Shown: positions 1,245 through 25,563 of the stretch, piece by piece
How the letters are laid out: each line of letters opens with the position of its first letter
Position numbering within the stretch: the stretch's first letter is position 1
DNA from: a virus
Lineage: Duplodnaviria > Heunggongvirae > Uroviricota > Caudoviricetes
Virus record (IMG/VR): IMGVR_UViG_2534682338_000010
Span: 1 to 33,953 of that record
DNA length: 33,953 bases
Direction: 5' to 3' (one strand)
Notes under the pieces: generated by a model
What the model saw: only the letters and a program-made list of their open reading frames with translations
What the model was told of the DNA's origin: nothing
Database searches by the model: none
Translations under genes and position numbers: made by a program

Positions 1245-1284
1245 GCCCCTATCGTTATAATACACGGTAGGGGCGTTTTTGTTT
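1245..1284 (+). terminator. rho-independent terminator
   Basis: 10-bp stem GCCCCTATCG / CGGTAGGGGC followed by GTTTTTGTTT. Confidence 0.6.
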
Positions 1285-1293
1285 GGAAATGGT

Positions 1294-2973
1294 ATGAAAA
1301 CTAAACTATATTCGTATATTCGCTTCTCGTCTATGCGTCAGAGTGATGGTTCGAGTTATGAACGACAAATCAGGATGGCGAGAGAGATTGCGGCAAAGTA
1401 TGACCTTGAACTGGTAAATGATTATCAGGATCTGGGTGTATCTGCGTTTAAGGGTGCTAACTCTAAAACAGGGGCGCTATCTCGTTTCCTTGATGCAATT
1501 GGTAGATCCGTTCCTGTTGGTAGCTGGCTATTCATTGAAAACTTGGACCGCTTATCCCGTGCCGATATTGTCAGTGCGCAGGAGTTATTCCTTTCAATCA
1601 TCCGTAGGGGAATAACCATTGTTACTGGCATGGATAACAAGATCTACTCGCTGGATACTGTTACCGCTAATCCGATGGACCTGATGTTCTCCATCCTTTT
1701 ATTCATCCGTGGTAATGAGGAAAGTCAGACTAAGCGCAATCGTACTAATTCAAGCGCACTGATTAAGATTAAAGCCCATCAAGAAAATCCCCAGAATCCG
1801 GCAGTGGCAATCGAGGAAGTTGGAAAGAATATGTGGTGGACGGATACCACTTCCGGTTATGTGCTGCCTCATCCGGTGTACTTCCCTGTTGTTCAGGATA
1901 TTGTGGAATTGCGGAAGAATGGACGTTCAACCGCCGAGATACTGGATCACCTTAACGAGACTTATACACCGCCACCAGCGGTTAGCAACAAGAAGCATTC
2001 AAAATGGTCACGGGCAATGGTTGAAAGGTTGTTTCATACCCGCGCTTTGATTGGTATCAAGGAGGTCTCTGTAGATGGCGTTAACTATGAGTTAAAGGAT
2101 TATTACCCTCGTGTTATTGATGACCCTACGTTCTATCACCTTAAGAAAAATATTGGTGCTAGAGCATGGAACTTTGGAGACAAGGAAGAAGTTAAACCGA
2201 TCCCCCTGCTTAGTGGTATTGGCCTATTGAAATGTGATCATTGCGGTTGCGCTATGGTTAAAGTGAAGGGAACGAACAAACGTTCTGACCAGTATCGTTA
2301 TACATGTGATGCGACCCGTTCACGTAGACTTGATTGCGAGCATCCAAACTGGAGTTTTCGAGGGGATCAATTAGAGAAAGCTGTATTGCAATTGCTGGCT
2401 GATAAAATCTGGATTGCTGAGGATAAGGCTAATCCGGTTCCGGCGTTGAAAGTACAGGTTGATGAAATATCACGCAAGATTGATAACCTGATTGCCCTTT
2501 CTGCTATGACAGGAGCAACGAAGGAGCTAGCCGATCAGATTACTACCCTCAATAGCGAGCGTGAAACACTCTACAATCAGATCAAGATGGCAGAAGAGGA
2601 AATGTATTCTGTGGACTCTCAAGGCTGGGAGAAGCTCGCAGAATTTGATTTAGAAGATGTTTATAACGAGGAACGACTAAAGGTCCGGTTTAAGATTAAG
2701 CAAGCTCTAAAGCGGATCGGGTGTAGCAGGATTGACAGAAACAAAAACTTGTTTGTACTGGAATACATCGATGGAAAGACCCAGAGAGTTGTAATAGAAA
2801 ATTCAAGAGGAACGAGGAAAGGCCGGATATTCATTGATTTGAAAACTATCAATGATAGACAGATTCTGGAAAGTAACGGGCTTGTTTTGCATCCATGTTT
2901 AGACATGCTGACAGATAAAGACTGGAAACCAGAAGAGGAAATACCAGGTCCATTACAGGAATTTGGAATTTAA
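1294..2973 (+). CDS. large serine recombinase (resolvase/invertase catalytic domain, recombinase domain, zinc ribbon, coiled coil)
   Basis: N-terminal YSYIRFSSMRQ (catalytic-Ser motif of serine recombinases); ENLDRLSR (conserved DRLGR-type motif); Cys cluster CDHCGC...YRYTC...CEH; 560 aa. Track start is TTG at 1279; ATG at 1294 preferred. Confidence 0.85.
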   Translation: MKTKLYSYIRFSSMRQSDGSSYERQIRMAREIAAKYDLELVNDYQDLGVSAFKGANSKTGALSRFLDAIGRSVPVGSWLFIENLDRLSRADIVSAQELFLSIIRRGITIVTGMDNKIYSLDTVTANPMDLMFSILLFIRGNEESQTKRNRTNSSALIKIKAHQENPQNPAVAIEEVGKNMWWTDTTSGYVLPHPVYFPVVQDIVELRKNGRSTAEILDHLNETYTPPPAVSNKKHSKWSRAMVERLFHTRALIGIKEVSVDGVNYELKDYYPRVIDDPTFYHLKKNIGARAWNFGDKEEVKPIPLLSGIGLLKCDHCGCAMVKVKGTNKRSDQYRYTCDATRSRRLDCEHPNWSFRGDQLEKAVLQLLADKIWIAEDKANPVPALKVQVDEISRKIDNLIALSAMTGATKELADQITTLNSERETLYNQIKMAEEEMYSVDSQGWEKLAEFDLEDVYNEERLKVRFKIKQALKRIGCSRIDRNKNLFVLEYIDGKTQRVVIENSRGTRKGRIFIDLKTINDRQILESNGLVLHPCLDMLTDKDWKPEEEIPGPLQEFGI

Positions 2974-15449: not shown

Positions 15450-15956
15450 TTAAGAGATTTTCAAAGTCTGCTTAGTGCCAGTCTTCTTAATGTTGGTAAG
15501 GAAAGCAGCCGGAGGATTGCTTAACCAGTAGTAATGAAAACCACTTTGCATACTGTTATAAGGAACAGTGACAGCAGCACCACCCAAATTAACGGTTATA
15601 TTCCCCGCTCTACCATTCTGGAGATATACAGCCATAGTAGGAGTACCACCATTGAATTGACCAACGATAACGCCAATCAGACGCCCTACGCCCACGTTTT
15701 CGGGGTTCTCCATAGATCCTTTACCGCGCATGTCAGTTACTGGATAGTTTGAAGCAGTTACACCCCAGTTATTACCCAATGAAGTAGACCACGCAGCAGT
15801 AGCTACAACCGTATCCATACCACGACCACACATCGCACTCATGTTAGCTGGGCGACTAACCTTTAATGCGTTCATTGCTGCGCTCATCCATCGTTGACCA
15901 GTTACAGAAACAGCAGATGACCCGACCCAGCCAGGCTTATTAACGACATTCGCCAT
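15450..15956 (-). CDS. tail-associated structural protein (Gly/Asn-rich)
   Basis: 168-aa ORF; GGAG SD 8 nt upstream; follows the terminator after the putative tube gene. Confidence 0.5.
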   Translation of the reverse strand: MANVVNKPGWVGSSAVSVTGQRWMSAAMNALKVSRPANMSAMCGRGMDTVVATAAWSTSLGNNWGVTASNYPVTDMRGKGSMENPENVGVGRLIGVIVGQFNGGTPTMAVYLQNGRAGNITVNLGGAAVTVPYNSMQSGFHYYWLSNPPAAFLTNIKKTGTKQTLKIS

Positions 15957-16124: not shown

Positions 16125-16601
16125 TCAAGCGGCAGTATTGAAGATTTGCTGTTTCAGCGGAGCACCATCAACGGCAAAGGTAAACTCTTTAGTTACCACT
16201 TCTTCATCGCCACCGTTCATAGCAACTTTAGAAATGAAGCCGTTGTACGCAATGCGAATACCAGTCTGTTTTCCGGCGTCAACATAATACTCTACTTTGA
16301 TCTGGCAGCGAGTGCCGTCTTCGGCAGCTTTTGCGAGCTTCTCGTGTACCGCATCACCTGGGATGTAGTTAACGGTCAGAGTCAGATCTTCAACGTTCAG
16401 TTTACCAACCAGCTTACGGTTATACTGAGAAGAATACGATTTGACTTCTACCGTCCCGCGAGACAGTGAATATTCAGGAAAACCAGCACACTCTTTAATT
16501 TCTTCGTATGCTTCATCAGCAAGATCGGTGTTAGTGGTATCAGCGTGATAGAACAGACTTACCAGACCACCAGTAAAAATATCTTTAAATTGTTGAGACA
16601 T
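16125..16601 (-). CDS. putative major tail tube protein
   Basis: 158 aa; size typical of siphovirus tube proteins; followed by a strong terminator; ends with TGA. Confidence 0.5.
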   Translation of the reverse strand: MSQQFKDIFTGGLVSLFYHADTTNTDLADEAYEEIKECAGFPEYSLSRGTVEVKSYSSQYNRKLVGKLNVEDLTLTVNYIPGDAVHEKLAKAAEDGTRCQIKVEYYVDAGKQTGIRIAYNGFISKVAMNGGDEEVVTKEFTFAVDGAPLKQQIFNTAA

Positions 16602-16657: not shown

Positions 16658-19600
16658 TTATTTAGTTGCTTTCAGTTCGGCTAATTCAGCTTTAGTTTCG
16701 GCAAGTTCTTTAGCCATAGCATCAAACTTAGCGGTCATTTCCTGCATTGCTTTGATGATTAAAGCATTGACAGCAGAGTTAGAAATAGTCTTGATTGCTT
16801 CTGGATGTTCTGGATCTTCGGTGGATTGAATACCTACTGCTTCCGGCAATACTTTTTCCAGATCCTGAGCAATAATACCTACTTCGCGTTTAATCACCGT
16901 GTCATCGGAAAGAGATTTAACTTTATCGTAGGTGTAGACTTTCAGTGAGTTTACTTTCTCTAATGCGCCGTCCTGTAATTCTTCCTTGTTAATTTTCAAA
17001 CGGGAGTCGGAGCGAATGTAAACATCGTTAAACGAACCGTTACGACCTGCGGTAAAGTCACCAGCAGCGTTAAAGTCAAAAGTTGCATCGTGTACGTGCA
17101 TACGCACCATAGCATTTCCGATAGTACCGCTAGGAACATGTACACCCATTGCTGCGATATGATATTTACCTTGATGGGTTGCTTTCCATACGTTATGAGC
17201 GGAATCGGTTGATTGTTGACAGTCGACCTGAATACCAGAAGCACGATCACGCCAGCTAGTCCAACTACCGCCAGCAACAGAACCACGAATCAGACCATTA
17301 CCGCCACCGGAAACAGTACCCGTTTCAAGTTGAATCATCTTACCGCCGAATTTCCAGACTTCGGTTTGTTTCTCACCGCGCATACGCATAACGCCAGCAT
17401 CATCGCAGTACAACAGACCCAATTCTAAGCCATTTGGATCTCTAAACCACAAATGCTTATTGCCACTGCGACGAAACTCAATATCAGCACCGTTAAGCGT
17501 GATATTACCGCCAGTGTGAATTGCTTTAGGTTTAACAGTACCGTTGATGGCAAACTCGATTAATTCAGTACCCGGACCGCCCGGTCGTTGTGTGTACCAG
17601 TGCCAACCGCTTTCGTCCGCACATTCGAATACTTGTTTACGAGCATCAGCACCCCACGCACGGATATTAAAGCTAGAAGTAGCTGTATTTTTGCCCCACG
17701 TTAATTTTCCTTCGGTAGTTAAATCCCCTCGGAAATGAGCAAGTAAGCCACCAGTACCGTTACGTTCTGTAGTAAAGTGAGTTCCGCTAGTGTCCTGGAA
17801 TTGCAAAACGTTATATCGATTGGCATTACTATTCCCCCAATGGTTAATCGTAAAAGAATCCATCGACTGATTTCCACCAGCAGAGAAAGTAAGCAGTCCT
17901 TTTTCTAAGAATACATTGTTGCTAAAACGGGCAGCACGGCTATCTCTTTCAAGAACTAATGCACCTTCGTTACCATCACCGCCTAAAGTAACTTTACCGT
18001 TAGTCAAATCGTAAATGAACGGTCTGTTTCCATTCCATCCGCCCAATTTATCATTTTCGGCAGTAGAAAGAAGATAAACTTTACCACCGTCATTACGCCA
18101 GAATGCACCATAATTACCGTAGATCATGCGGTAGGCGTCGCTATTCATTGAGATGAATTGAGCGTTAGTATAAACTCGTTTTGTGTTACCGGTTGCAAGT
18201 TCGATCTGTCCGTCGATGTGGTGACGAATAGAAGTACCACCTACATCACTATACCATTCAAAAACGTTAGTATCAGCATTACCATAACCGATCCACCCTT
18301 GACGGGTAATAGATCCAGTACGATTATCTTGAAACGCAATATGGTTGGATTGACCAGCAGGACGCCGCAAGGTAATAACATTACTACCTCCACCCAACAT
18401 CATTCGACCAGAAAGAATATTACCTTTATGAGTCCCAGCAATAGAGCTACTAGATTCAACGGATAGAATCTCCTGAGCATCTGTACTACCCGTGGCGAGT
18501 CGATAAGTAGAACCCTGAACCGTCTCATGCCAGATCATTTCGTTATAGTTGCTACGGAATTTACGAATATATTTTCGTCCAGTACCTCTATCATTGCTTA
18601 GATGAACAATGTCATAGCTGTTTTGTGTATTGTCGTCAAAACTCAACACACCACGTTTATTTTCTGTGTTAAAAAGAGTTACGTTGCGACCACCGATAAC
18701 ACCAACGGAAGGTTTAATTAACGTGGCTTCCGGCGTATCATAAACCGTCAAACTTACATAAACAGATTTCCCATATTCGACAATGACGTTATCGGTATAA
18801 CGCTGATATTTCACGTAGATATCATAGTTATCACCGGAAGTATTGACAGCAAATACCTCAAAATCTTTGTTTGTATTTCTACGGTATGCAATTACGTTAA
18901 GACCTTTAGGTCTATCGTTACCACTACGGAGAAGAATTTCTACTACATCAACTTGGTCATATGCCGTAACGTTGTAACCATTACCACCATGAATACGGAA
19001 AAACACACTACGCCCGTTTTGTGGAATTGTTGCGGTTGCCAATTTGAAATATGCAGATACGTTTTCGCTAGAATTGGGAACAGACATAACGACGTTTTTA
19101 ACAAACATCTTATCAACTTCGGCTTTGGTGTATGCACCAATCTCGCCAGGAGTCGGCTTATCACCTTCGTGATACATCTTATAGCTAAAGTTCTTCTGTC
19201 CTTCTCTATCAAAACCATAGGTTTCAACACGAGATCCACCAGACGCATAACGGAAAGTAAATCCGCGACCGTGCGCTTTACCGGCAGAGTGAGGAACGTT
19301 AAGAGTTAGATCCATGAGTCCATCTTGACCATTGGTACGGAAAGCACCAAAGTAGTTAAGATCTCTCGCTGTCTGGTCTTCCAAATAGTTAGCTGTTTTG
19401 GTTAACAGATAGCCGTGATGGTAAGTGTTGGTATTCTTCTTGATGTAAGCAGCATCGGCACTACCTTCAATAGAATCAATTCGCTGGTTAGCTGCGGCAA
19501 TTGCGGCATCAGTAGAAGATTTATTCTGGTCTACCTTGTTGTTAATTGCTGTATGGTTGCTATTAACTGTCCCCGTAAGATTGGTGATCTTCGTGTCGGC

Positions 19601-20194
19601 ATCTTTCTTATTATCCGCTACCGTCTTTTCTATTGCTGATTTATTTGCTTCGACAGTATTCGTTAAGTTGGTAACGTTGGTATTCGTCTGATCAACCCGC
19701 GCATTAATATCTGTCTTGTTCTTGTTAATTGTCGCGTTGATAGTATCGCGGGTTGAAGTAATAGTCTGATTCAGTTCAGTCTTAGCAGCCGCCAGAGCGT
19801 TAGCAGCTTCGGTTTTATTGTTACCTACTGTGGTAGTCAAAGCATCAATTCGTTTGTTGGCTGCGGTATCGCCAGCAGTGATTGAAGCATTGAGAGTATC
19901 ACGGGTAGAAGTGATAGTCTGATTCAGTTCAGCTTTAGCACTAGCCAGATTATTAGCGGCTTCTTGTTTGTTGGAAGCAATAACACGGTCAGTGCTAGTT
20001 TTGTTATTGTCTACTTTCGTATTCAGTTCAGCGTGTTTTTCTGGAGAAACACTAATTTGGACTACGTTATTATTTTTGTCTTTGGTGTAAATCACATGAT
20101 CCGCCAACTGTAAGGCGATTTCACCCTGTGATAATTGTTCCGGCGTTGGTTTTTTACCCGCCGTCTGTGTGCGTTTAAATTGGATCGACTGCAT
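16658..20194 (-). CDS. fibre protein with coiled-coil repeat shaft and C-terminal intramolecular chaperone (S74-like autoproteolytic) domain
   Basis: 1178 aa; N-terminal repeated NQTITSTRDT-type heptad units; C-terminal DSRLKINKEEL...VYTYDK...GIIAQDLEKVLPEAV typical of self-cleaving fibre chaperone domains. Confidence 0.75.
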   Translation of the reverse strand: MQSIQFKRTQTAGKKPTPEQLSQGEIALQLADHVIYTKDKNNNVVQISVSPEKHAELNTKVDNNKTSTDRVIASNKQEAANNLASAKAELNQTITSTRDTLNASITAGDTAANKRIDALTTTVGNNKTEAANALAAAKTELNQTITSTRDTINATINKNKTDINARVDQTNTNVTNLTNTVEANKSAIEKTVADNKKDADTKITNLTGTVNSNHTAINNKVDQNKSSTDAAIAAANQRIDSIEGSADAAYIKKNTNTYHHGYLLTKTANYLEDQTARDLNYFGAFRTNGQDGLMDLTLNVPHSAGKAHGRGFTFRYASGGSRVETYGFDREGQKNFSYKMYHEGDKPTPGEIGAYTKAEVDKMFVKNVVMSVPNSSENVSAYFKLATATIPQNGRSVFFRIHGGNGYNVTAYDQVDVVEILLRSGNDRPKGLNVIAYRRNTNKDFEVFAVNTSGDNYDIYVKYQRYTDNVIVEYGKSVYVSLTVYDTPEATLIKPSVGVIGGRNVTLFNTENKRGVLSFDDNTQNSYDIVHLSNDRGTGRKYIRKFRSNYNEMIWHETVQGSTYRLATGSTDAQEILSVESSSSIAGTHKGNILSGRMMLGGGSNVITLRRPAGQSNHIAFQDNRTGSITRQGWIGYGNADTNVFEWYSDVGGTSIRHHIDGQIELATGNTKRVYTNAQFISMNSDAYRMIYGNYGAFWRNDGGKVYLLSTAENDKLGGWNGNRPFIYDLTNGKVTLGGDGNEGALVLERDSRAARFSNNVFLEKGLLTFSAGGNQSMDSFTINHWGNSNANRYNVLQFQDTSGTHFTTERNGTGGLLAHFRGDLTTEGKLTWGKNTATSSFNIRAWGADARKQVFECADESGWHWYTQRPGGPGTELIEFAINGTVKPKAIHTGGNITLNGADIEFRRSGNKHLWFRDPNGLELGLLYCDDAGVMRMRGEKQTEVWKFGGKMIQLETGTVSGGGNGLIRGSVAGGSWTSWRDRASGIQVDCQQSTDSAHNVWKATHQGKYHIAAMGVHVPSGTIGNAMVRMHVHDATFDFNAAGDFTAGRNGSFNDVYIRSDSRLKINKEELQDGALEKVNSLKVYTYDKVKSLSDDTVIKREVGIIAQDLEKVLPEAVGIQSTEDPEHPEAIKTISNSAVNALIIKAMQEMTAKFDAMAKELAETKAELAELKATK

Positions 20195-20271: not shown

Positions 20272-21105
20272 TTAATACTCACCGAAATCGATCCGGTCCG
20301 TCTTAGCCACTGCGCCAATTTCGCTAGGTGTCGGTTTCTCATTGGTGGAATATACCTTGATCCATTCAGAACGACCGTTTTCCTGAATATTTCGGACACG
20401 TAAACGCGGTGCGCCAGAAGTATTACAGGTTAATTGCCATGCGCCATGCTCATTAGCTTGAAGGTGAATTAACGATGTATCAGCACCATAAGGGTTAGTG
20501 CTAGCCGTTCCTTTGTAGGTTACGAAACGGTTTCCTGCTAATGCCTCGCTATCAATACCGCCCGTGAATGGATGTACACCTGCACCCAAACCAAAATCAC
20601 CCTGACGTAAGATCCGGCCTTCGGTAGCAATACCCCTTGCCAAAATCCCGCCATCTGGTTCAAGTTTAAATTCCAGTGTTACAGCTTTGTTATCACTACC
20701 ACGGGTTTTATGTGATGTGACGTAAGCATCGAATATACAAAAGTACCCTGTGTTAGCAGCACTATAGCCAGAGTTCACAACATAGAACATACGGAAGCGT
20801 AAAGGTGTTTTATCCTCTACCGCTTTCATCAACATTGCTTGATGTTCATCGTCAAGAACACGGTTTAACGTGAGTGTTGTCGGTTCCAGTCTACGATAAC
20901 CAGCAAGTTTCCCCGTAGCGTCCTGATCGTACTCTTCCAGAGTTTCAATCTCTGTGGATTCGGTTAGCGTAGGGAATGCTGCGATGTTCTCAATAGAACT
21001 AAAGCTAGGATCGAAAAAGTCGACCTGATTGTCTATCTGGTTAGAGATCGACACTTCAACATGCGACCCCGTGAAAATGTCTAAGTTATCTTGTGTAATA
21101 TTCAT
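20272..21105 (-). CDS. tail/neck structural protein (possible tube or fibre-anchoring protein)
   Basis: 277 aa; C-terminus shares the motif KPTPSEIGA with the 1178-aa fibre. Confidence 0.5.
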   Translation of the reverse strand: MNITQDNLDIFTGSHVEVSISNQIDNQVDFFDPSFSSIENIAAFPTLTESTEIETLEEYDQDATGKLAGYRRLEPTTLTLNRVLDDEHQAMLMKAVEDKTPLRFRMFYVVNSGYSAANTGYFCIFDAYVTSHKTRGSDNKAVTLEFKLEPDGGILARGIATEGRILRQGDFGLGAGVHPFTGGIDSEALAGNRFVTYKGTASTNPYGADTSLIHLQANEHGAWQLTCNTSGAPRLRVRNIQENGRSEWIKVYSTNEKPTPSEIGAVAKTDRIDFGEY

Positions 21106-21870: not shown

Positions 21871-22002
21871 TTATTATTCTTTAGTTTTACGTTGTTTTTT
21901 AACTGTGGCTTTCGCCGTAACCGTCTGAGATTCTTCTTCCTGAGATGGAATCAGATTTTCTTCCCCCAAATCGGGGGAAGGTTCAGATGGTTCTACGTTA
22001 GT
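21871..22002 (-). other. in-frame post-TGA extension of the capsid gene (42 codons then TAA-TAA)
   Basis: frame 0 after TGA (22003-22005) is open: TNVEPSEPSPDLGEENLIPSQEEESQTVTAKATVKKQRKTKE. Confidence 0.45.
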
Positions 22003-24006
22003 TCATTCAGCGGAGATGTGAAGAACTTTCAGAGCTTCCGGCTGAACTACGGTGAAGTCCAGGTCTACCCAGATACGCGGAACGATAGCAGACTGTGCGC
22101 GGTAAGTGGTGTCGTCCATATCCAGTTCCAGACCACCCCATTCACCGATCATGATACCGGAGAAATCACCCAGAACGATGTGGTCTGCCGGAATAACGCC
22201 AGAAGTAACTACATCGTAACCAGCCAGTTTGCCGTTTTCGATGATATAACCGGAAACGCCGTTATCTTTCAGGGTAGATTCCAGTTCAGCAGCAGTTGCA
22301 CCGCTCATTGCAAACTTGATGGACTGTGCCGGAACGCCAGCGTCGGTCAGTGCTGCAATTTCTTTCAGGAAGTCTTTGTAGCTAAAAGCGGCTTTCTTAG
22401 TAACGCGACCACCGTCTACCAGTTGCTTAACCAGACCTTTCGGACCTCGAGTATTATCTTTGTCAGACAGAATCAGTTGTTCCAGTTTGATGCGAACAGC
22501 TTTGTTAATATGATCAGTGATCAGGGTAGCAATATTCGGAACAGTTTTCAGAGACTGACGGCTGATCGGGTTGCCACCAGCAAACGTCTTAGGAGCCATT
22601 TTCACGTTTGCAAATTCAGCTTTGCTTTCCGGTGCAGCACCGTTTTCATCAACGAAACCGAAAGCATCAACGCTGGAAGTAGTCATTTTCGGTACAGCAA
22701 TCGGAGCATTCAGACCAGACAGAACAGTCACACCCAGACGACCCAGAACAGACTGCGGAAGCAGCATTTCTACATAGGATTCGGTCAGCAGTTTTTCGTC
22801 GGTTACAGCAGTCAGAGTAGCTTTGGTGTTACCATCAGCAGCAGCACGCAGAGCAGCAGCCGGAACGAATACAGAGCCACCGCGAGCAGCACGACCACGC
22901 TGCATTGCAGCACCAGCAGCCATTGCAGAAAACTCGGCTTCGTTAGCACCCAGAGCTTCACCATCTACCAGGGAGCGAATTACGTTGTTCAGGTCAAAAG
23001 TTTTTTCCATTTTAGAGTCCTTAATTTGTTCGTTATTACGTTGAGCAGTAGCGATTTTATTTAGTGTCTTAGTGCGGAATGCTTCCGGCGTCATGTCTTT
23101 AATTGCTAATGCGCGTTTCAATTCTTCGTCATCAATATTTAGTTCGCGTGCAATTTCGCGAATTTCTAATTCATCTTCTTCGGAACGTTCAGCCACTTCC
23201 TCGGTTTTTTCTTCTTCATCCGGAGCGGCTTCACGTTCTTCTTTTACTTCTTCTGCTTCCCGAACAGTTGAACTATCATCATCAACACTTTCAGGATGTT
23301 CAGCGTCTTTTCCGTCTTCGAGATTTTCATCTTCTTTATTCTCTTCAACTTGGCGCTCTTGAGTTTCTTCAACTTCCGGTTCTTTATTTTCTTCTACCGG
23401 AGTTTCTTCAACCTGAGCGGATTCTTGTTCTTCTTTGATTTCTTCGATTTGTTCTTTAGTCATATCGCGTTTAGCCTCCAAATTAACTGTGATAGTATTT
23501 AGAGAGCGATTTAAACCGACAGAATCATCGGCAGGGACCGTCACAAATGAAATTTCAAAAGGCGCCCACTTAGTAACAATCAATTGCCCTTTGGTGTAGT
23601 CGATGTGATATTCTTTAATGTCATAACCGACAGAAATTTTTTCCATCGTACCTTCAATGACTTTATTGCGAATATCATTAGCCAAAGTGCCATGCTTAGA
23701 GAATTTAACCAGAGCACGACCTACGTTATCCGCATCGATTCGAGCGTTACAAACGACACCAATATGATTATCGAAATTATGATTGAACAGCAACGGAGCG
23801 TTATTATTCAGACGGGACAGATCAACCGCTTCCGGTGTATGTACCAGAATTTCATCTAATACCACCATTTCTTGATTTTGCTCATCCCAGAATTGGCGCT
23901 GATAAGGCTGTTCACTGGAGAAAGCAATTTCAAATTCGTATTGATCGTTATGCCCTTCGTTAATAACTCCACCGTAACCGTTAAGATCGCGGCGAAATTT
24001 AAGCAT
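22003..24006 (-). CDS. prohead protease / acidic scaffold (delta-like) / HK97-fold major capsid protein fusion
   Basis: 667 aa: N-terminal about 170 aa protease-like (ends EISFVTVPAD), about 150 aa extremely Glu-rich linker, C-terminal about 330 aa capsid-like. Confidence 0.75.
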   Translation of the reverse strand: MLKFRRDLNGYGGVINEGHNDQYEFEIAFSSEQPYQRQFWDEQNQEMVVLDEILVHTPEAVDLSRLNNNAPLLFNHNFDNHIGVVCNARIDADNVGRALVKFSKHGTLANDIRNKVIEGTMEKISVGYDIKEYHIDYTKGQLIVTKWAPFEISFVTVPADDSVGLNRSLNTITVNLEAKRDMTKEQIEEIKEEQESAQVEETPVEENKEPEVEETQERQVEENKEDENLEDGKDAEHPESVDDDSSTVREAEEVKEEREAAPDEEEKTEEVAERSEEDELEIREIARELNIDDEELKRALAIKDMTPEAFRTKTLNKIATAQRNNEQIKDSKMEKTFDLNNVIRSLVDGEALGANEAEFSAMAAGAAMQRGRAARGGSVFVPAAALRAAADGNTKATLTAVTDEKLLTESYVEMLLPQSVLGRLGVTVLSGLNAPIAVPKMTTSSVDAFGFVDENGAAPESKAEFANVKMAPKTFAGGNPISRQSLKTVPNIATLITDHINKAVRIKLEQLILSDKDNTRGPKGLVKQLVDGGRVTKKAAFSYKDFLKEIAALTDAGVPAQSIKFAMSGATAAELESTLKDNGVSGYIIENGKLAGYDVVTSGVIPADHIVLGDFSGIMIGEWGGLELDMDDTTYRAQSAIVPRIWVDLDFTVVQPEALKVLHISAE

Positions 24007-24051
24007 TTAATCACCTTTAATTAATTGGGGGCATTGCGCCCCCGTTGGTTA

Positions 24052-25563
24052 TTAGGGATCGGCTGGGGAATTTTTTTCTTCACCCTCGCCATCAACGATA
24101 ATATTTAGTGCGCTCTTTTCGGCTTGAATCTCTGAGAATACTTTTTCAGGATCATCACCACGTTCAAGAATAACGGCAGTACGTGATTTAAGTCCTTTAT
24201 CAATTAAAGCAATATCAGCGTTTACGTCTTTAATAACATCGACAGACTCGAAACGCGGACGAATAATAGTTGTATTATCGATAATATGTGGAATTGCAGT
24301 AATACGAATCGGAACAATACCACGCGCGGAATAATGGCGTAGATATGCTTCAAAAATTGGCAATACCACTGTTTCAATTAATTTGTTTTGAAGTGCTTTA
24401 ACGCGGTTACGTTGAAGTAGTTCACCAAAACGTGCGGCTGAGTAGTTGATCTGTGAACAATCTCCCGTTAAGCCCTGTTTAAACACGCCTAAGCCCATTG
24501 ATACGCTAGTAAACATCGCATCATTGAAGCTGTTAAAGTCATCACCGCTTTGCGTCGCCTGGATGCTCTTGATCGTTGCCCCTTCCGGTAATTCCTGAAT
24601 AGTACCCGGTGCAAAATCCTGTACTACTTCCGGCGCTTGATATTGTTCATCCTCTTCACCAGTATCAAAATCGTCACCAGAATCTTTCGGACGTTCGATA
24701 AAGCCCATAGAGCTAGCTGCAATACGTTTCTGGACGATCGCAGTTTCGCGGAATGCGTCTTGATGTGCGATATCCTTAATCACTGGCAGGAAGTCAGTCA
24801 CACCACGCAGAGATTCAGCCGCAAGTGGTTGATAATAATGACATACTTGCGAAGCATCTACGCGATAGTTATCACCTGTGTAAGTCTGAGTCAGTAGGTT
24901 GATTTTACGAAACCAAAATGCAACAGGGCGCATTGTTTCTACGTCATACTCGATCCCCTGATAGATAGCGCGTTCTTTGCTTACTTCACGGTTTAGCGAC
25001 CAGTCGCACTTATCAGCAGACAGGATAGAAACATTTAACTCATTGTTTTCTTTGGTTAAAACGATGAAGCACTCACCACCCATAACGCGCTCACGTTCAG
25101 CCATTACCAGCAGTTCACGGAAGTTAAAGCGACCGTTACGAGAGAAGCGTTTAGCGTTCTGCGCCCACTTCCAGAAAGCATTCTCGATCTGCTTATTCAG
25201 TGCGCTATCAAGTTTGCCATTTGATTTAACGATTGATGGCTTCGGATCTAGGCCAGTACCTACCACCATATCGGTGATGTATTGCGTGTATCGACTGCCT
25301 ACGGAAGTGTTTAAGGCCAGAGTACGACCCTGATCATAAAGGCGCTTACCGTTCGATTTGAGAGCCTTATTGAAGGTTCCTGTAATGGTGTCTTGTTGAA
25401 GTGATCCATCAATGCGATCACCCACCAGACCTAAACTACGAGTCGCCAAAGATCTCTGGTATTTTTCTATAGATTTGTCGATGAAAATTTTTGGTTGTTG
25501 CTGGCGGTGATTAGTTTTAACTGGAGTTTCTACCGCCTTTTTGCGTCGAAAAAGATTAAACAT
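24052..25563 (-). CDS. portal protein
   Basis: 503 aa; position between terminase and capsid; composition and length typical of lambda-type portals. Confidence 0.75.
   Translation of the reverse strand: MFNLFRRKKAVETPVKTNHRQQQPKIFIDKSIEKYQRSLATRSLGLVGDRIDGSLQQDTITGTFNKALKSNGKRLYDQGRTLALNTSVGSRYTQYITDMVVGTGLDPKPSIVKSNGKLDSALNKQIENAFWKWAQNAKRFSRNGRFNFRELLVMAERERVMGGECFIVLTKENNELNVSILSADKCDWSLNREVSKERAIYQGIEYDVETMRPVAFWFRKINLLTQTYTGDNYRVDASQVCHYYQPLAAESLRGVTDFLPVIKDIAHQDAFRETAIVQKRIAASSMGFIERPKDSGDDFDTGEEDEQYQAPEVVQDFAPGTIQELPEGATIKSIQATQSGDDFNSFNDAMFTSVSMGLGVFKQGLTGDCSQINYSAARFGELLQRNRVKALQNKLIETVVLPIFEAYLRHYSARGIVPIRITAIPHIIDNTTIIRPRFESVDVIKDVNADIALIDKGLKSRTAVILERGDDPEKVFSEIQAEKSALNIIVDGEGEEKNSPADP

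What the first reader, a model, noticed from the sequence alone, without database searches (positions are those of the whole stretch)
22003..24006. Protease, scaffold and capsid encoded as one polypeptide
One ORF combines a prohead-protease-like N-terminal domain, an approximately 150-residue extremely acidic Glu-rich coiled-coil region resembling a delta/scaffold domain, and an HK97-fold capsid domain. This would fix protease-to-capsid stoichiometry at 1:1 and imply autoprocessing during maturation. The acidic linker composition resembles the readthrough extensions described above.
Basis: partly seen in the sequence, partly recalled or inferred. Interest (0 to 1): 0.5.

Follow-up and report, generated by a model that had tools for sequence, protein, structure and literature searches.

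The report
Protease–capsid fusion gene with hidden start
An E. coli prophage encodes its capsid-maturation protease, a scaffold-like segment and its capsid protein as one gene, a known and widespread layout, and a conserved internal ribosome-binding site suggests the same gene also makes a protease-free capsid precursor, so the protease dose is probably not fixed at 1:1.

Summary

Two details need correction. The acidic tract is predicted disordered, not coiled-coil. The scaffold-like helical domain is a separate conserved segment (res 272–390).

The architecture is already known. [quoted passage not shown] There are ≥547 clusters at 50% identity, including phages VP882, phiHAP-1, R4C and ECO1230-10.

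The 1:1 stoichiometry inference is probably wrong. Codon 182 is an in-frame ATG with GGAGG 11 nt upstream. Across 49 dereplicated diverged loci, 47 have such a linker ATG. These ATGs show SD pairing far above within-linker controls (KS p=5e-13), SD spacing of 4–11 nt in 29/31, and locally unstructured mRNA.

This predicts a nested 486-aa scaffold–capsid product, as in λ C/Nu3 and herpesvirus UL26/UL26.5. No nested CDS is annotated in 12 phage records, and I found no paper describing it. It remains untested experimentally.

The parts
22003..24006 (-). Full-length ORF, 667 aa, 73.5 kDa: protease - acidic linker - helical scaffold-like domain - HK97-fold capsid domain
   Evidence: 100% identical protein P0001 from E. 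coli H120
24011..24017 (-). Shine-Dalgarno-like AAGGTGA upstream of the full-length start (ATG 24006..24004)
   Evidence: read directly from the sequence
23506..23946 (-). Prohead serine protease domain (res 21-167), Peptidase_S78 / HK97 gp4 type. Candidate catalytic residues: H76 (23779-23781), S125 (23632-23634), E151 (23554-23556)
23475..23479 (-). Internal Shine-Dalgarno GGAGG, 11 nt upstream of the internal ATG
   Evidence: Anti-SD duplex -9.3 kcal/mol, the best 2% of positions in this linker. GGAGG in 26 and GGGGG in 5 of the 31 unique sequences compared, window included
23461..23463 (-). Internal in-frame ATG (codon 182), the predicted start of the nested product
   Evidence: conserved in all 31 unique close sequences, window included. 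A homologous linker ATG is present in 47 of 49 dereplicated diverged loci, with SD, spacing and mRNA-accessibility signatures
22003..23463 (-). Predicted nested ORF, 486 aa, 52.8 kDa: acidic N-terminal tail + helical scaffold-like domain + capsid domain, without protease
   Evidence: inference; sizes. Not demonstrated experimentally
23122..23478 (-). Acidic Glu-rich tract (res 177-295; 45% D+E, net -39). Res 200-271 are predicted intrinsically disordered. It is a lineage-specific expansion of a variable linker
   Evidence: Alignment occupancy 24-65% in diverged relatives. Linker length 15-152 aa, net negative in 136/147, window ranked 8th of 147 by acidity
22837..23193 (-). Conserved helical domain (res 272-390; six predicted helices), the likely delta/scaffold-like assembly domain removed at maturation
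   Evidence: AF2 pLDDT 79-95. Conserved positions I282, F310, E356, E358, G377, P382, R387. It lies upstream of the first residue in the R4C virion structure
22006..22815 (-). HK97-fold major capsid domain (res ~398-667, ~29 kDa), the likely mature capsid protein. The exact cleavage site is unknown
   Evidence: Pfam PF05065 res 409-663. phmmer to 8gta_A E 1e-26. Foldseek to 8GTA, HK97, RcGTA, D3 and SaPI1 with TMt 0.6-0.75
24052..25563 (-). Portal gene immediately upstream. There is no separate protease or scaffold gene between portal and capsid
   Evidence: PHROG 21 E 3e-65. Same gene order in the cultured relatives inspected (portal directly upstream in all twelve)

Best explanation
This is the head-assembly gene of a temperate E. 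coli siphophage-type prophage. It belongs to a large, already recognised family in which the HK97-type (S78) prohead protease, a scaffold/delta-like region and the HK97-fold major capsid protein are encoded in one reading frame directly after the portal gene. The gene most likely yields two co-terminal proteins. Initiation at codon 1 gives the 73.5-kDa protease-linker-scaffold-capsid polyprotein. Initiation at the conserved internal RBS and ATG at codon 182 gives a 52.8-kDa linker-scaffold-capsid protein without protease. Both would co-assemble into the procapsid through their identical capsid and helical domains, with the N-terminal parts facing inward. The protease is thereby delivered covalently, on a flexible acidic tether, to a subset of subunits. 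Once concentrated inside the shell it cuts away itself, the linker and the helical domain from all subunits, leaving a mature capsid protein of about 29-31 kDa that starts somewhere around residues 375-400. Shown here: the ORF, the three folded modules, the invariant catalytic residues, the family size, and the statistical signatures of an internal start site. Inferred: that both products are made, their ratio, co-assembly, and the cleavage positions.
Against: There is no experimental evidence of two products for any member. None of the 12 GenBank phage records inspected annotates a nested CDS. The window's SD-to-ATG spacing of 11 nt is at the long end of the functional range. Five of the 31 unique close sequences compared have GGGGG instead of GGAGG. 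Low synonymous diversity around the site is not exceptional for this gene (16th percentile). Two of 49 dereplicated loci have no linker ATG, and about 15% have no SD-like sequence. Several cultured relatives show weak signals: S-LBS1, Murka and MQ-4. The linker is purine-rich, which favours chance SD-like motifs, although the within-linker, spacing and null-region controls address this. The cleavage site is not determined. 8GTA's 268 residues may be only the ordered part of a longer mature protein.
Confidence: 0.68

Rival explanations
1. Only the full-length polyprotein is made. Every capsid subunit carries its own protease (strict 1:1), which removes itself and the linker after assembly. The linker ATG and SD-like motifs have no initiation function.
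For: The ORF is uninterrupted in the window and in all 80 diverged loci. Databases annotate a single CDS. Two of 49 loci lack a linker ATG and some lack an SD, so a 1:1 design may be viable in at least some lineages. The full-length start has its own good SD.
Against: It does not explain why an ATG, an SD at 4-11 nt and weak mRNA structure coincide just after the protease domain across lineages that share only 25-45% identity, while six control regions of the same genes show nothing. From general knowledge of HK97: proheads carry far fewer protease copies than the 415 capsid subunits, and ~19 kDa of protease per subunit would crowd the interior.
Confidence: 0.2
2. The SD plus ATG is an evolutionary relic of the start of a formerly separate capsid gene that fused to the upstream protease gene. 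It is no longer used.
For: The arrangement looks like protease gene + SD + ATG + scaffold-capsid gene with the stop codon lost. In HK97 the protease gene (4) and capsid gene (5) are adjacent and separate (general knowledge).
Against: The fusion is ancient and universal in the family: all 80 diverged loci are fused and there are 547 clusters at 50% identity. The surrounding linker has diverged beyond alignment in length (15-152 aa) and composition. An unused 4-6-nt motif at fixed spacing, and low mRNA structure, would not persist without selection.
Confidence: 0.07
3. The internal SD-like sequence acts as a translational pause site that gives the protease domain time to fold before the linker emerges. 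It is not a start site.
For: The motif lies just after a domain boundary.
Against: A pause site would need neither an in-frame ATG at 4-11 nt (29/31), nor ATG enrichment, nor unstructured mRNA around the ATG. From general knowledge, SD-induced pausing in bacteria is itself disputed.
Confidence: 0.04
4. The single ORF is an artefact: a sequencing or assembly error, or a pseudogene, has merged a protease gene and a capsid gene.
For: None found. One of 32 close relatives (L033) carries a frameshift.
Against: An identical protein is on record. 31 of 32 close relatives, 80 of 80 distant relatives and the cultured phages whose ORF could be analysed (nine of twelve) keep the single ORF.
Confidence: 0.01

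Closest known systems
[quoted passage not shown]
   Same: Same domain order and the same position after the portal gene. PHROG 617 aligns over res 21-662 (E 6e-96). Murka annotates 'major capsid protein and protease'. [quoted passage not shown] KIRK Fhv_0017 lists Peptidase_S78 + Phage_capsid.
   Different: Nothing in kind. This E. coli lineage has one of the longer and more acidic linkers, ranked 8th of 147. None of these sources mentions an internal start.
Bacteriophage HK97 gp4 protease and gp5 capsid protein with its N-terminal delta (scaffolding) domain
   Same: Same protease family (S78) and the same capsid fold. In both, a helical scaffolding domain is fused to the N-terminus of the capsid protein and removed by the protease (HK97: PMC10275583).
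   Different: In HK97 the protease is a separate gene product incorporated non-covalently in substoichiometric amounts. Here it is in frame with the capsid gene. The helical domain here shows no detected sequence similarity to the HK97 delta domain, and it is preceded by a disordered acidic tract.
Nested in-frame protease/scaffold genes: lambda C/Nu3 (Shaw & Murialdo 1980), Mu I/Z, and herpesvirus UL26/UL26.5
   Same: A long product carrying the protease and a shorter, more abundant product starting at an internal in-frame site share one C-terminal assembly domain, so the protease is co-assembled at low dose. Herpes: PMC11565193 reports about 10-fold more of the short form.
   Different: In those systems the shared part is only the scaffold, and the capsid protein is a separate gene. 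Here the shared part would include the capsid protein itself. Herpesviruses use a separate promoter and transcript, whereas here an internal RBS is predicted. Lambda gpC is an S49-type protease, not S78. The two products here are predicted, not shown.
P2 gpO (protease-scaffold single protein)
   Same: The protease is fused N-terminally to a scaffolding region and processes itself (Chang et al. 2009, cited in PMC8508860).
   Different: gpO is not fused to the capsid protein gpN. As far as I know it is made as a single product.

Membership tests
Peptidase S78 / HK97-family prohead serine protease | Sequence match to the family profile above its curated threshold | tested here: met
   PF04586: 43.1 bits against a cut-off of 21, E 6e-11, res 40-162. 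TIGR01543 is hit at 37.6 bits, below its equivalog cut-off of 59.
Peptidase S78 / HK97-family prohead serine protease | Conserved catalytic His and Ser (plus an acidic third residue) | tested here: met
   H76, S125 and E151 are 100% conserved in 147 diverged fusion proteins and in the 40-sequence alignment. Their assignment as catalytic is by family analogy, not by assay.
Peptidase S78 / HK97-family prohead serine protease | Assemblin-like (herpesvirus protease / T4 gp21) fold | tested here: met
Peptidase S78 / HK97-family prohead serine protease | Proteolytic activity on the capsid precursor inside the procapsid | not testable with these tools
   Only indirect evidence: the virion structure of relative R4C holds 268 of 629 encoded residues.
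HK97-fold major capsid protein (Pfam Phage_capsid PF05065) | Profile match and HK97 fold | tested here: met
   PF05065: 94.6 bits against a cut-off of 24.2. 8gta_A phmmer E 1e-26. Foldseek E 1e-18 to 1e-10 against 8GTA, HK97 (1ohg, 2ft1), RcGTA (6tb9) and D3 (9ous).
Protease-capsid fusion family (PHROG 617; NCBIfam NF045541) | Full-length match covering the protease, linker and capsid parts | tested here: met
   PHROG 617 covers res 21-662 against profile positions 24-621 of 626, E 6e-96.
Protease-capsid fusion family (PHROG 617; NCBIfam NF045541) | Score above the curated cut-off of NF045541 (scaf_prot_MCP2) | tested here: not met
   133 bits against a cut-off of 525, matching only res 22-344. 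That model describes a different, narrower subfamily. The window protein shares the architecture but is not a member of that specific model.
Nested in-frame protease/scaffold genes (lambda C/Nu3 type) | An internal in-frame start codon with a ribosome-binding site downstream of the protease domain | tested here: met
   In silico only. GGAGG-N11-ATG at codon 182. Family-wide SD, spacing, accessibility and ATG-enrichment signals with flat null regions.
Nested in-frame protease/scaffold genes (lambda C/Nu3 type) | Two protein products with a common C-terminus, the shorter in excess | not testable with these tools
   Needs protein or ribosome-profiling data. No such data were found in 10 literature searches.
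HK97-type delta (scaffolding) domain | A helical domain directly N-terminal to the capsid fold that is absent from the mature shell | tested here: inconclusive
   Helical domain at res 272-390 is predicted with pLDDT 79-95, and it lies upstream of the first residue in the R4C virion model. Homology to the HK97 delta domain, oligomeric or coiled-coil state and removal were not shown. The acidic tract itself is predicted disordered.

The most novel reading that the evidence does not exclude
Protease-scaffold-capsid fusion genes across many bacterial phyla carry an unannotated, conserved internal translation start. Each gene would then be a nested pair: a minor protease-bearing polyprotein and a major protease-less scaffold-capsid subunit. 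The ratio of the two initiation sites, not a 1:1 fusion, would set the protease dose per procapsid. This would be a third, independently evolved version of the lambda C/Nu3 and herpesvirus UL26/UL26.5 strategy, and the only one in which the shared part includes the capsid protein itself. The variable, usually acidic, disordered linker would serve as the tether that lets each tethered protease reach neighbouring subunits.
Probability: 0.5. Interest if true: 0.55.

Novelty: new member of a known kind. Interest (0 to 1): 0.4.

Why it matters
As given, the finding is a correct description of a known gene architecture that databases usually hide under the label "major capsid protein", so on its own it is ordinary.

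A conserved internal start would make the gene a two-product unit and put the protease:capsid ratio under translational control.

If confirmed, three things would follow:
- The annotation of thousands of phage and prophage capsid genes would need correcting.
- The nested protease/scaffold expression logic shared by lambda, Mu and herpesviruses would extend to a case where the capsid protein itself is the shared module.
- It would offer a compact natural design, one gene giving a self-assembling and self-clearing shell, of interest for engineered nanocompartments and cargo loading.

Cultured relatives (R4C, ECO1230-10, VP882, Alexa) make the test straightforward.

Tried and rejected
- **Nucleotide search of the gene against GenBank phages:** no match. 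Only protein-level relatives were found.
- **Synonymous-site conservation around the internal SD/ATG in 31 close relatives:** low diversity, but only the 16th percentile for this gene. Counted as inconclusive.
- **The search for related loci in bacterial genomes:** two broad alignments failed for lack of a conserved stretch. A narrower alignment returned only 10 loci, enough to show host breadth but too few for a large replication. Cultured phage records were used instead.
- **Ten literature searches** (one search failed on syntax): they found the fusion named in actinophage papers and listed in a Francisella phage table. They found no paper on processing or an internal start in this family. 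Three key papers are not held: Mobberley 2008 on phiHAP-1, Liu & Mushegian 2004, and an HFTV1 ribosome-profiling preprint. Prior description therefore cannot be excluded.
- **R4C structure and proteome papers:** neither mentions a protease or cleavage of the capsid precursor.
- **Rejected readings:** the artefact/frameshift explanation; a coiled-coil reading of the acidic tract; and the idea that the Glu-rich composition defines the family, since R4C and others have Pro/Ala-rich linkers.

Full report
**1. The observation**

The window is part of an E. coli prophage. A protein 100% identical to the ORF product is on record for E. coli H120. The 8-kb head region matches 58 of 5,426 complete E. 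coli genomes at 80–94% identity, always on the chromosome.

The window also holds a large serine recombinase, a helicase, an anti-repressor, terminase, portal, tape measure and tail-fibre genes.

It follows the portal gene (24052..25563) after a 45-nt spacer. No separate protease or scaffold gene exists in the head module.

Pfam finds Peptidase_S78 at res 40–162 (E 6e-11, above threshold) and Phage_capsid at res 409–663 (E 9e-27).

The acidic region is real. Residues 177–295 are 36% Glu and 45% Asp+Glu, with a net charge of −39.

- 31 of 32 independently assembled close relatives keep the single ORF.
- All 80 diverged viral loci keep it too.
- Every cultured phage whose ORF could be analysed keeps it (nine of twelve).

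**2. Anatomy**

AlphaFold2 with a 40-sequence diverse alignment (mean pLDDT 79) resolves four parts:
- **Protease, res ~21–167.** A β-rich domain with pLDDT 90–97.
- **Linker, res ~169–271.** Two short low-confidence helices (172–180 and 184–197), then no predicted structure for res 200–271 (pLDDT <45).
- **Helical domain, res 272–390.** Six helices, pLDDT 79–95.
- **Capsid domain, from res ~409.** It follows a low-confidence stretch at res 392–408.

In a MAFFT alignment of 147 diverged fusion proteins, H76, S125 and E151 are 100% conserved and D160 is 99% conserved. These are the expected His/Ser/acid catalytic set, so the protease is under selection to stay active.

The capsid domain matches the R4C capsid (8GTA), HK97, RcGTA, D3 and SaPI1 capsid proteins.

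- A disordered acidic tract, which contains P203, P210, G232, P238 and P262.
- An adjacent, conserved helical domain, which is the better candidate for a delta/scaffold-like module.

**3. How common and how known**

The exhaustive representative search finds 7,065 clusters (50% identity) at E ≤ 1e-3 and 547 at E ≤ 1e-30. Nearly all of the best 150 are 560–700 aa long and match the query in both the protease and capsid parts.

104 GenBank phage records hold a relative. At least 585 IMG/VR contigs match. Prophage copies occur in Enterobacteriaceae, Verrucomicrobia, Acidobacteria, Acidovorax and Polyangia.

The architecture is already named:
- PHROG 617 covers the whole protein (E 6e-96), and PHROG 4523 is called 'major head and protease protein'.
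- NCBIfam has NF045541, 'prohead protease/major capsid protein fusion protein'. This protein scores below that model's cut-off, so it belongs to a different subfamily.
- Xanthomonas phage Murka annotates 'major capsid protein and protease'.
- Francisella phage KIRK lists both Pfam domains in one 600-aa 'major capsid protein'.

The fusion itself is therefore not new.

The linker is the variable part. Its length ranges from 15 to 152 aa (median 56). It is net negative in 136 of 147 sequences and strongly acidic (net ≤ −10) in 44. The window ranks 8th of 147 by acidity. Other members, such as R4C, have Pro/Ala-rich linkers instead.

**4. Processing**

The R4C gene encodes 629 aa. The chain in its virion cryo-EM structure, 8GTA, has 268 aa. 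It begins at GGVLVAQDYRAGSF, equivalent to about residue 398 here.

This is consistent with removal of the protease, linker and helical domain. It is not proof, because the R4C paper does not discuss cleavage and the deposited chain may be only the ordered part.

A mature protein of ~29–31 kDa is predicted here. The cleavage site is unknown.

**5. The stoichiometry question**

Many linkers of unrelated composition contain a Met in a context that looks like a protein N-terminus.

*Protein level.* Met frequency peaks at 4.2% in the 10–19 residues after the protease domain, against 0.4–1.2% just before it. A Met lies within 30 residues in 101 of 147 sequences, against 67.5 expected (p 2e-8).

*DNA level, 80 diverged loci.* The first linker ATG has anti-SD pairing of median −5.1 kcal/mol, against −2.2 for 1,011 other internal ATGs (p 1e-8).

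*Within-linker control.* The linker is purine-rich, so I compared each ATG with all other codon positions in its own linker, after dereplicating to 49 loci:
- 47 of the 49 have an ATG.
- Its SD energy is in the best 10% of positions in 55% of cases, and in the best 25% in 74% (KS p 5e-13).
- The identical test in six other 62-codon regions of the same genes is flat: median percentile 0.39–0.61, KS p ≥ 0.05. An ATG is present in only 28–43 of 49 loci in those regions.

*Spacing.* Where an SD core of ≥4 nt exists, it lies 4–11 nt from the ATG in 29 of 31 cases, against 34% of control positions (p 5e-12).

*Host SD use.* Linker-SD strength tracks SD use at ordinary gene starts in the same locus (ρ 0.44, p 0.002). 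This is expected if weak cases come from hosts that rely less on SD.

*mRNA structure.* The mRNA from −25 to +20 around the ATG is 3.3 kcal/mol less structured than other windows of the same linker (p 2e-6).

*Replication.* In an independent set of cultured phages and prophages, 8 of 12 first linker ATGs fall in the best quartile (p 0.003). Clear examples are R4C (cGGAGGacgcaATG), DCP80, Alexa, ECO1230-10 and an Acidovorax prophage.

*The window itself.* The site is TTGGAGGCTAAACGCGAT-ATG: SD at 23479..23475, ATG at 23463..23461, pairing energy −9.3 kcal/mol, best 2% of its linker. M182 is conserved in all 31 unique close sequences compared, window included, although five of them have GGGGG in place of GGAGG.

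**6. Mechanism proposed**

The gene is most likely a nested pair. The full-length 73.5-kDa product carries the protease. The 52.8-kDa product starting at M182 is a scaffold–capsid subunit comparable to HK97 gp5 with its delta domain.

Both share the helical and capsid domains, so they should co-assemble on the portal. The protease would then be delivered covalently to a subset of positions, on a flexible acidic tether. It would clear all N-terminal parts once enclosed in the shell.

This is the logic of two known systems:
- Lambda C/Nu3 (Shaw & Murialdo 1980, cited in PMC8508860).
- Herpesvirus protease–scaffold genes, where the short form is about 10-fold more expressed (PMC11565193).

The difference here is that the shared module includes the capsid protein.

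The steps 'two products', 'ratio', 'co-assembly' and 'cleavage positions' are inferences. The role of the negative charge of the linker is unknown. Charge repulsion that keeps the tether extended, or that keeps nucleic acid out of the procapsid, is speculation.

**7. Rivals**

- **A strict 1:1 polyprotein.** This remains possible (about 0.2), especially in the few lineages without a linker ATG. It leaves the coincident ATG, SD, spacing and accessibility signals unexplained.
- **A relic start site.** This is unlikely, because the linker has otherwise diverged beyond recognition while the fusion is universal in the family.
- **A pause-site role.** This does not need an ATG.
- **An artefact.** This is excluded by the comparative data.

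**8. Novelty and verdict**

The finding as written is a correct reading of a known architecture. One structural detail is wrong (the coiled coil) and one inference is probably wrong (1:1 stoichiometry).

I file the gene as a new member of a known kind.

The conserved internal start appears to be undescribed. No nested CDS is annotated in the 12 phage records inspected, and nothing turned up in ten full-text searches. However, key subscription papers are not held, so prior description cannot be excluded.

It is a concrete, cheaply testable prediction, and it gives the finding moderate rather than low interest.

Noticed in passing
window 24027-24043 (- strand), between the portal stop (24052) and the fusion start (24006): A perfect 6-bp G+C hairpin, GGGGGC-gcaat-GCCCCC, sits in the 45-nt spacer just upstream of the SD of the fusion gene. 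It is not followed by a T-run, so it is not a canonical terminator. It could be an mRNA processing or stability element, or could modulate translation of the full-length product.
   Followed up: no
window 16125-16601, 20272-21105 and 16658-20194 (all - strand): Two paralogous major-tail-protein-like genes (both PHROG 158) flank a 1178-aa T4-type long-tail-fibre gene, with a gp38-like adhesin at 15450-15956. The 277-aa copy has a C-terminal extension ending in a KPTPSEIGA motif that recurs in the fibre protein. An actinophage preprint also reports a duplicated major tail protein together with a capsid-protease fusion; this may be coincidence.
   Followed up: partly
window 22001-24000: G+C jumps from 0.40 (23001-24000, protease and linker) to 0.50 (22001-23000, capsid domain) within the one gene. 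Close relatives also differ more in the capsid half than in the protease/linker half. This suggests a recombination mosaic boundary near residue ~375.
   Followed up: no
L126 (Escherichia phage DCP80, PQ671644.1, 4358-9286): The closest cultured-phage relative (44% identity) lies in a 141-kb record classified as Straboviridae/Tevenvirinae. In that record the portal and fusion genes are annotated only as hypothetical proteins. A lambda-like head module in a T4-like record is odd and may reflect a chimeric assembly or a mis-assigned taxonomy.
   Followed up: no
P0156, P0136 and P0144 (representative proteins, linker region): Some family members carry unusual linker inserts. P0156 has a CxxC...CxxC zinc-ribbon-like motif (EYTCPECDHVFESADEPEECPECGYKFEDE). 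P0136 and P0144 have tandemly repeated linker units (NFTDEDVDYTERKKRAKR; TKTLADYVD).
   Followed up: no
L033 (IMGVR_UViG_2877285697_000006): One of 32 close relatives has a frameshift that truncates the ORF at 393 aa. This is either a decaying prophage copy or an assembly error.
   Followed up: no
window 21892-23064 (+ strand): A 390-aa antisense ORF overlaps the capsid domain. It is Ser/Phe/Arg-rich and lies in the G+C-rich half of the gene. It is most likely a chance open frame. Similar antisense 'hypothetical proteins' are annotated inside the VP882 homologue (gp08, gp09).
   Followed up: partly
window 1279-2973 (+ strand): The prophage integrase is a large serine recombinase (PHROG 95, E 5e-63), not a tyrosine integrase.
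   Followed up: no
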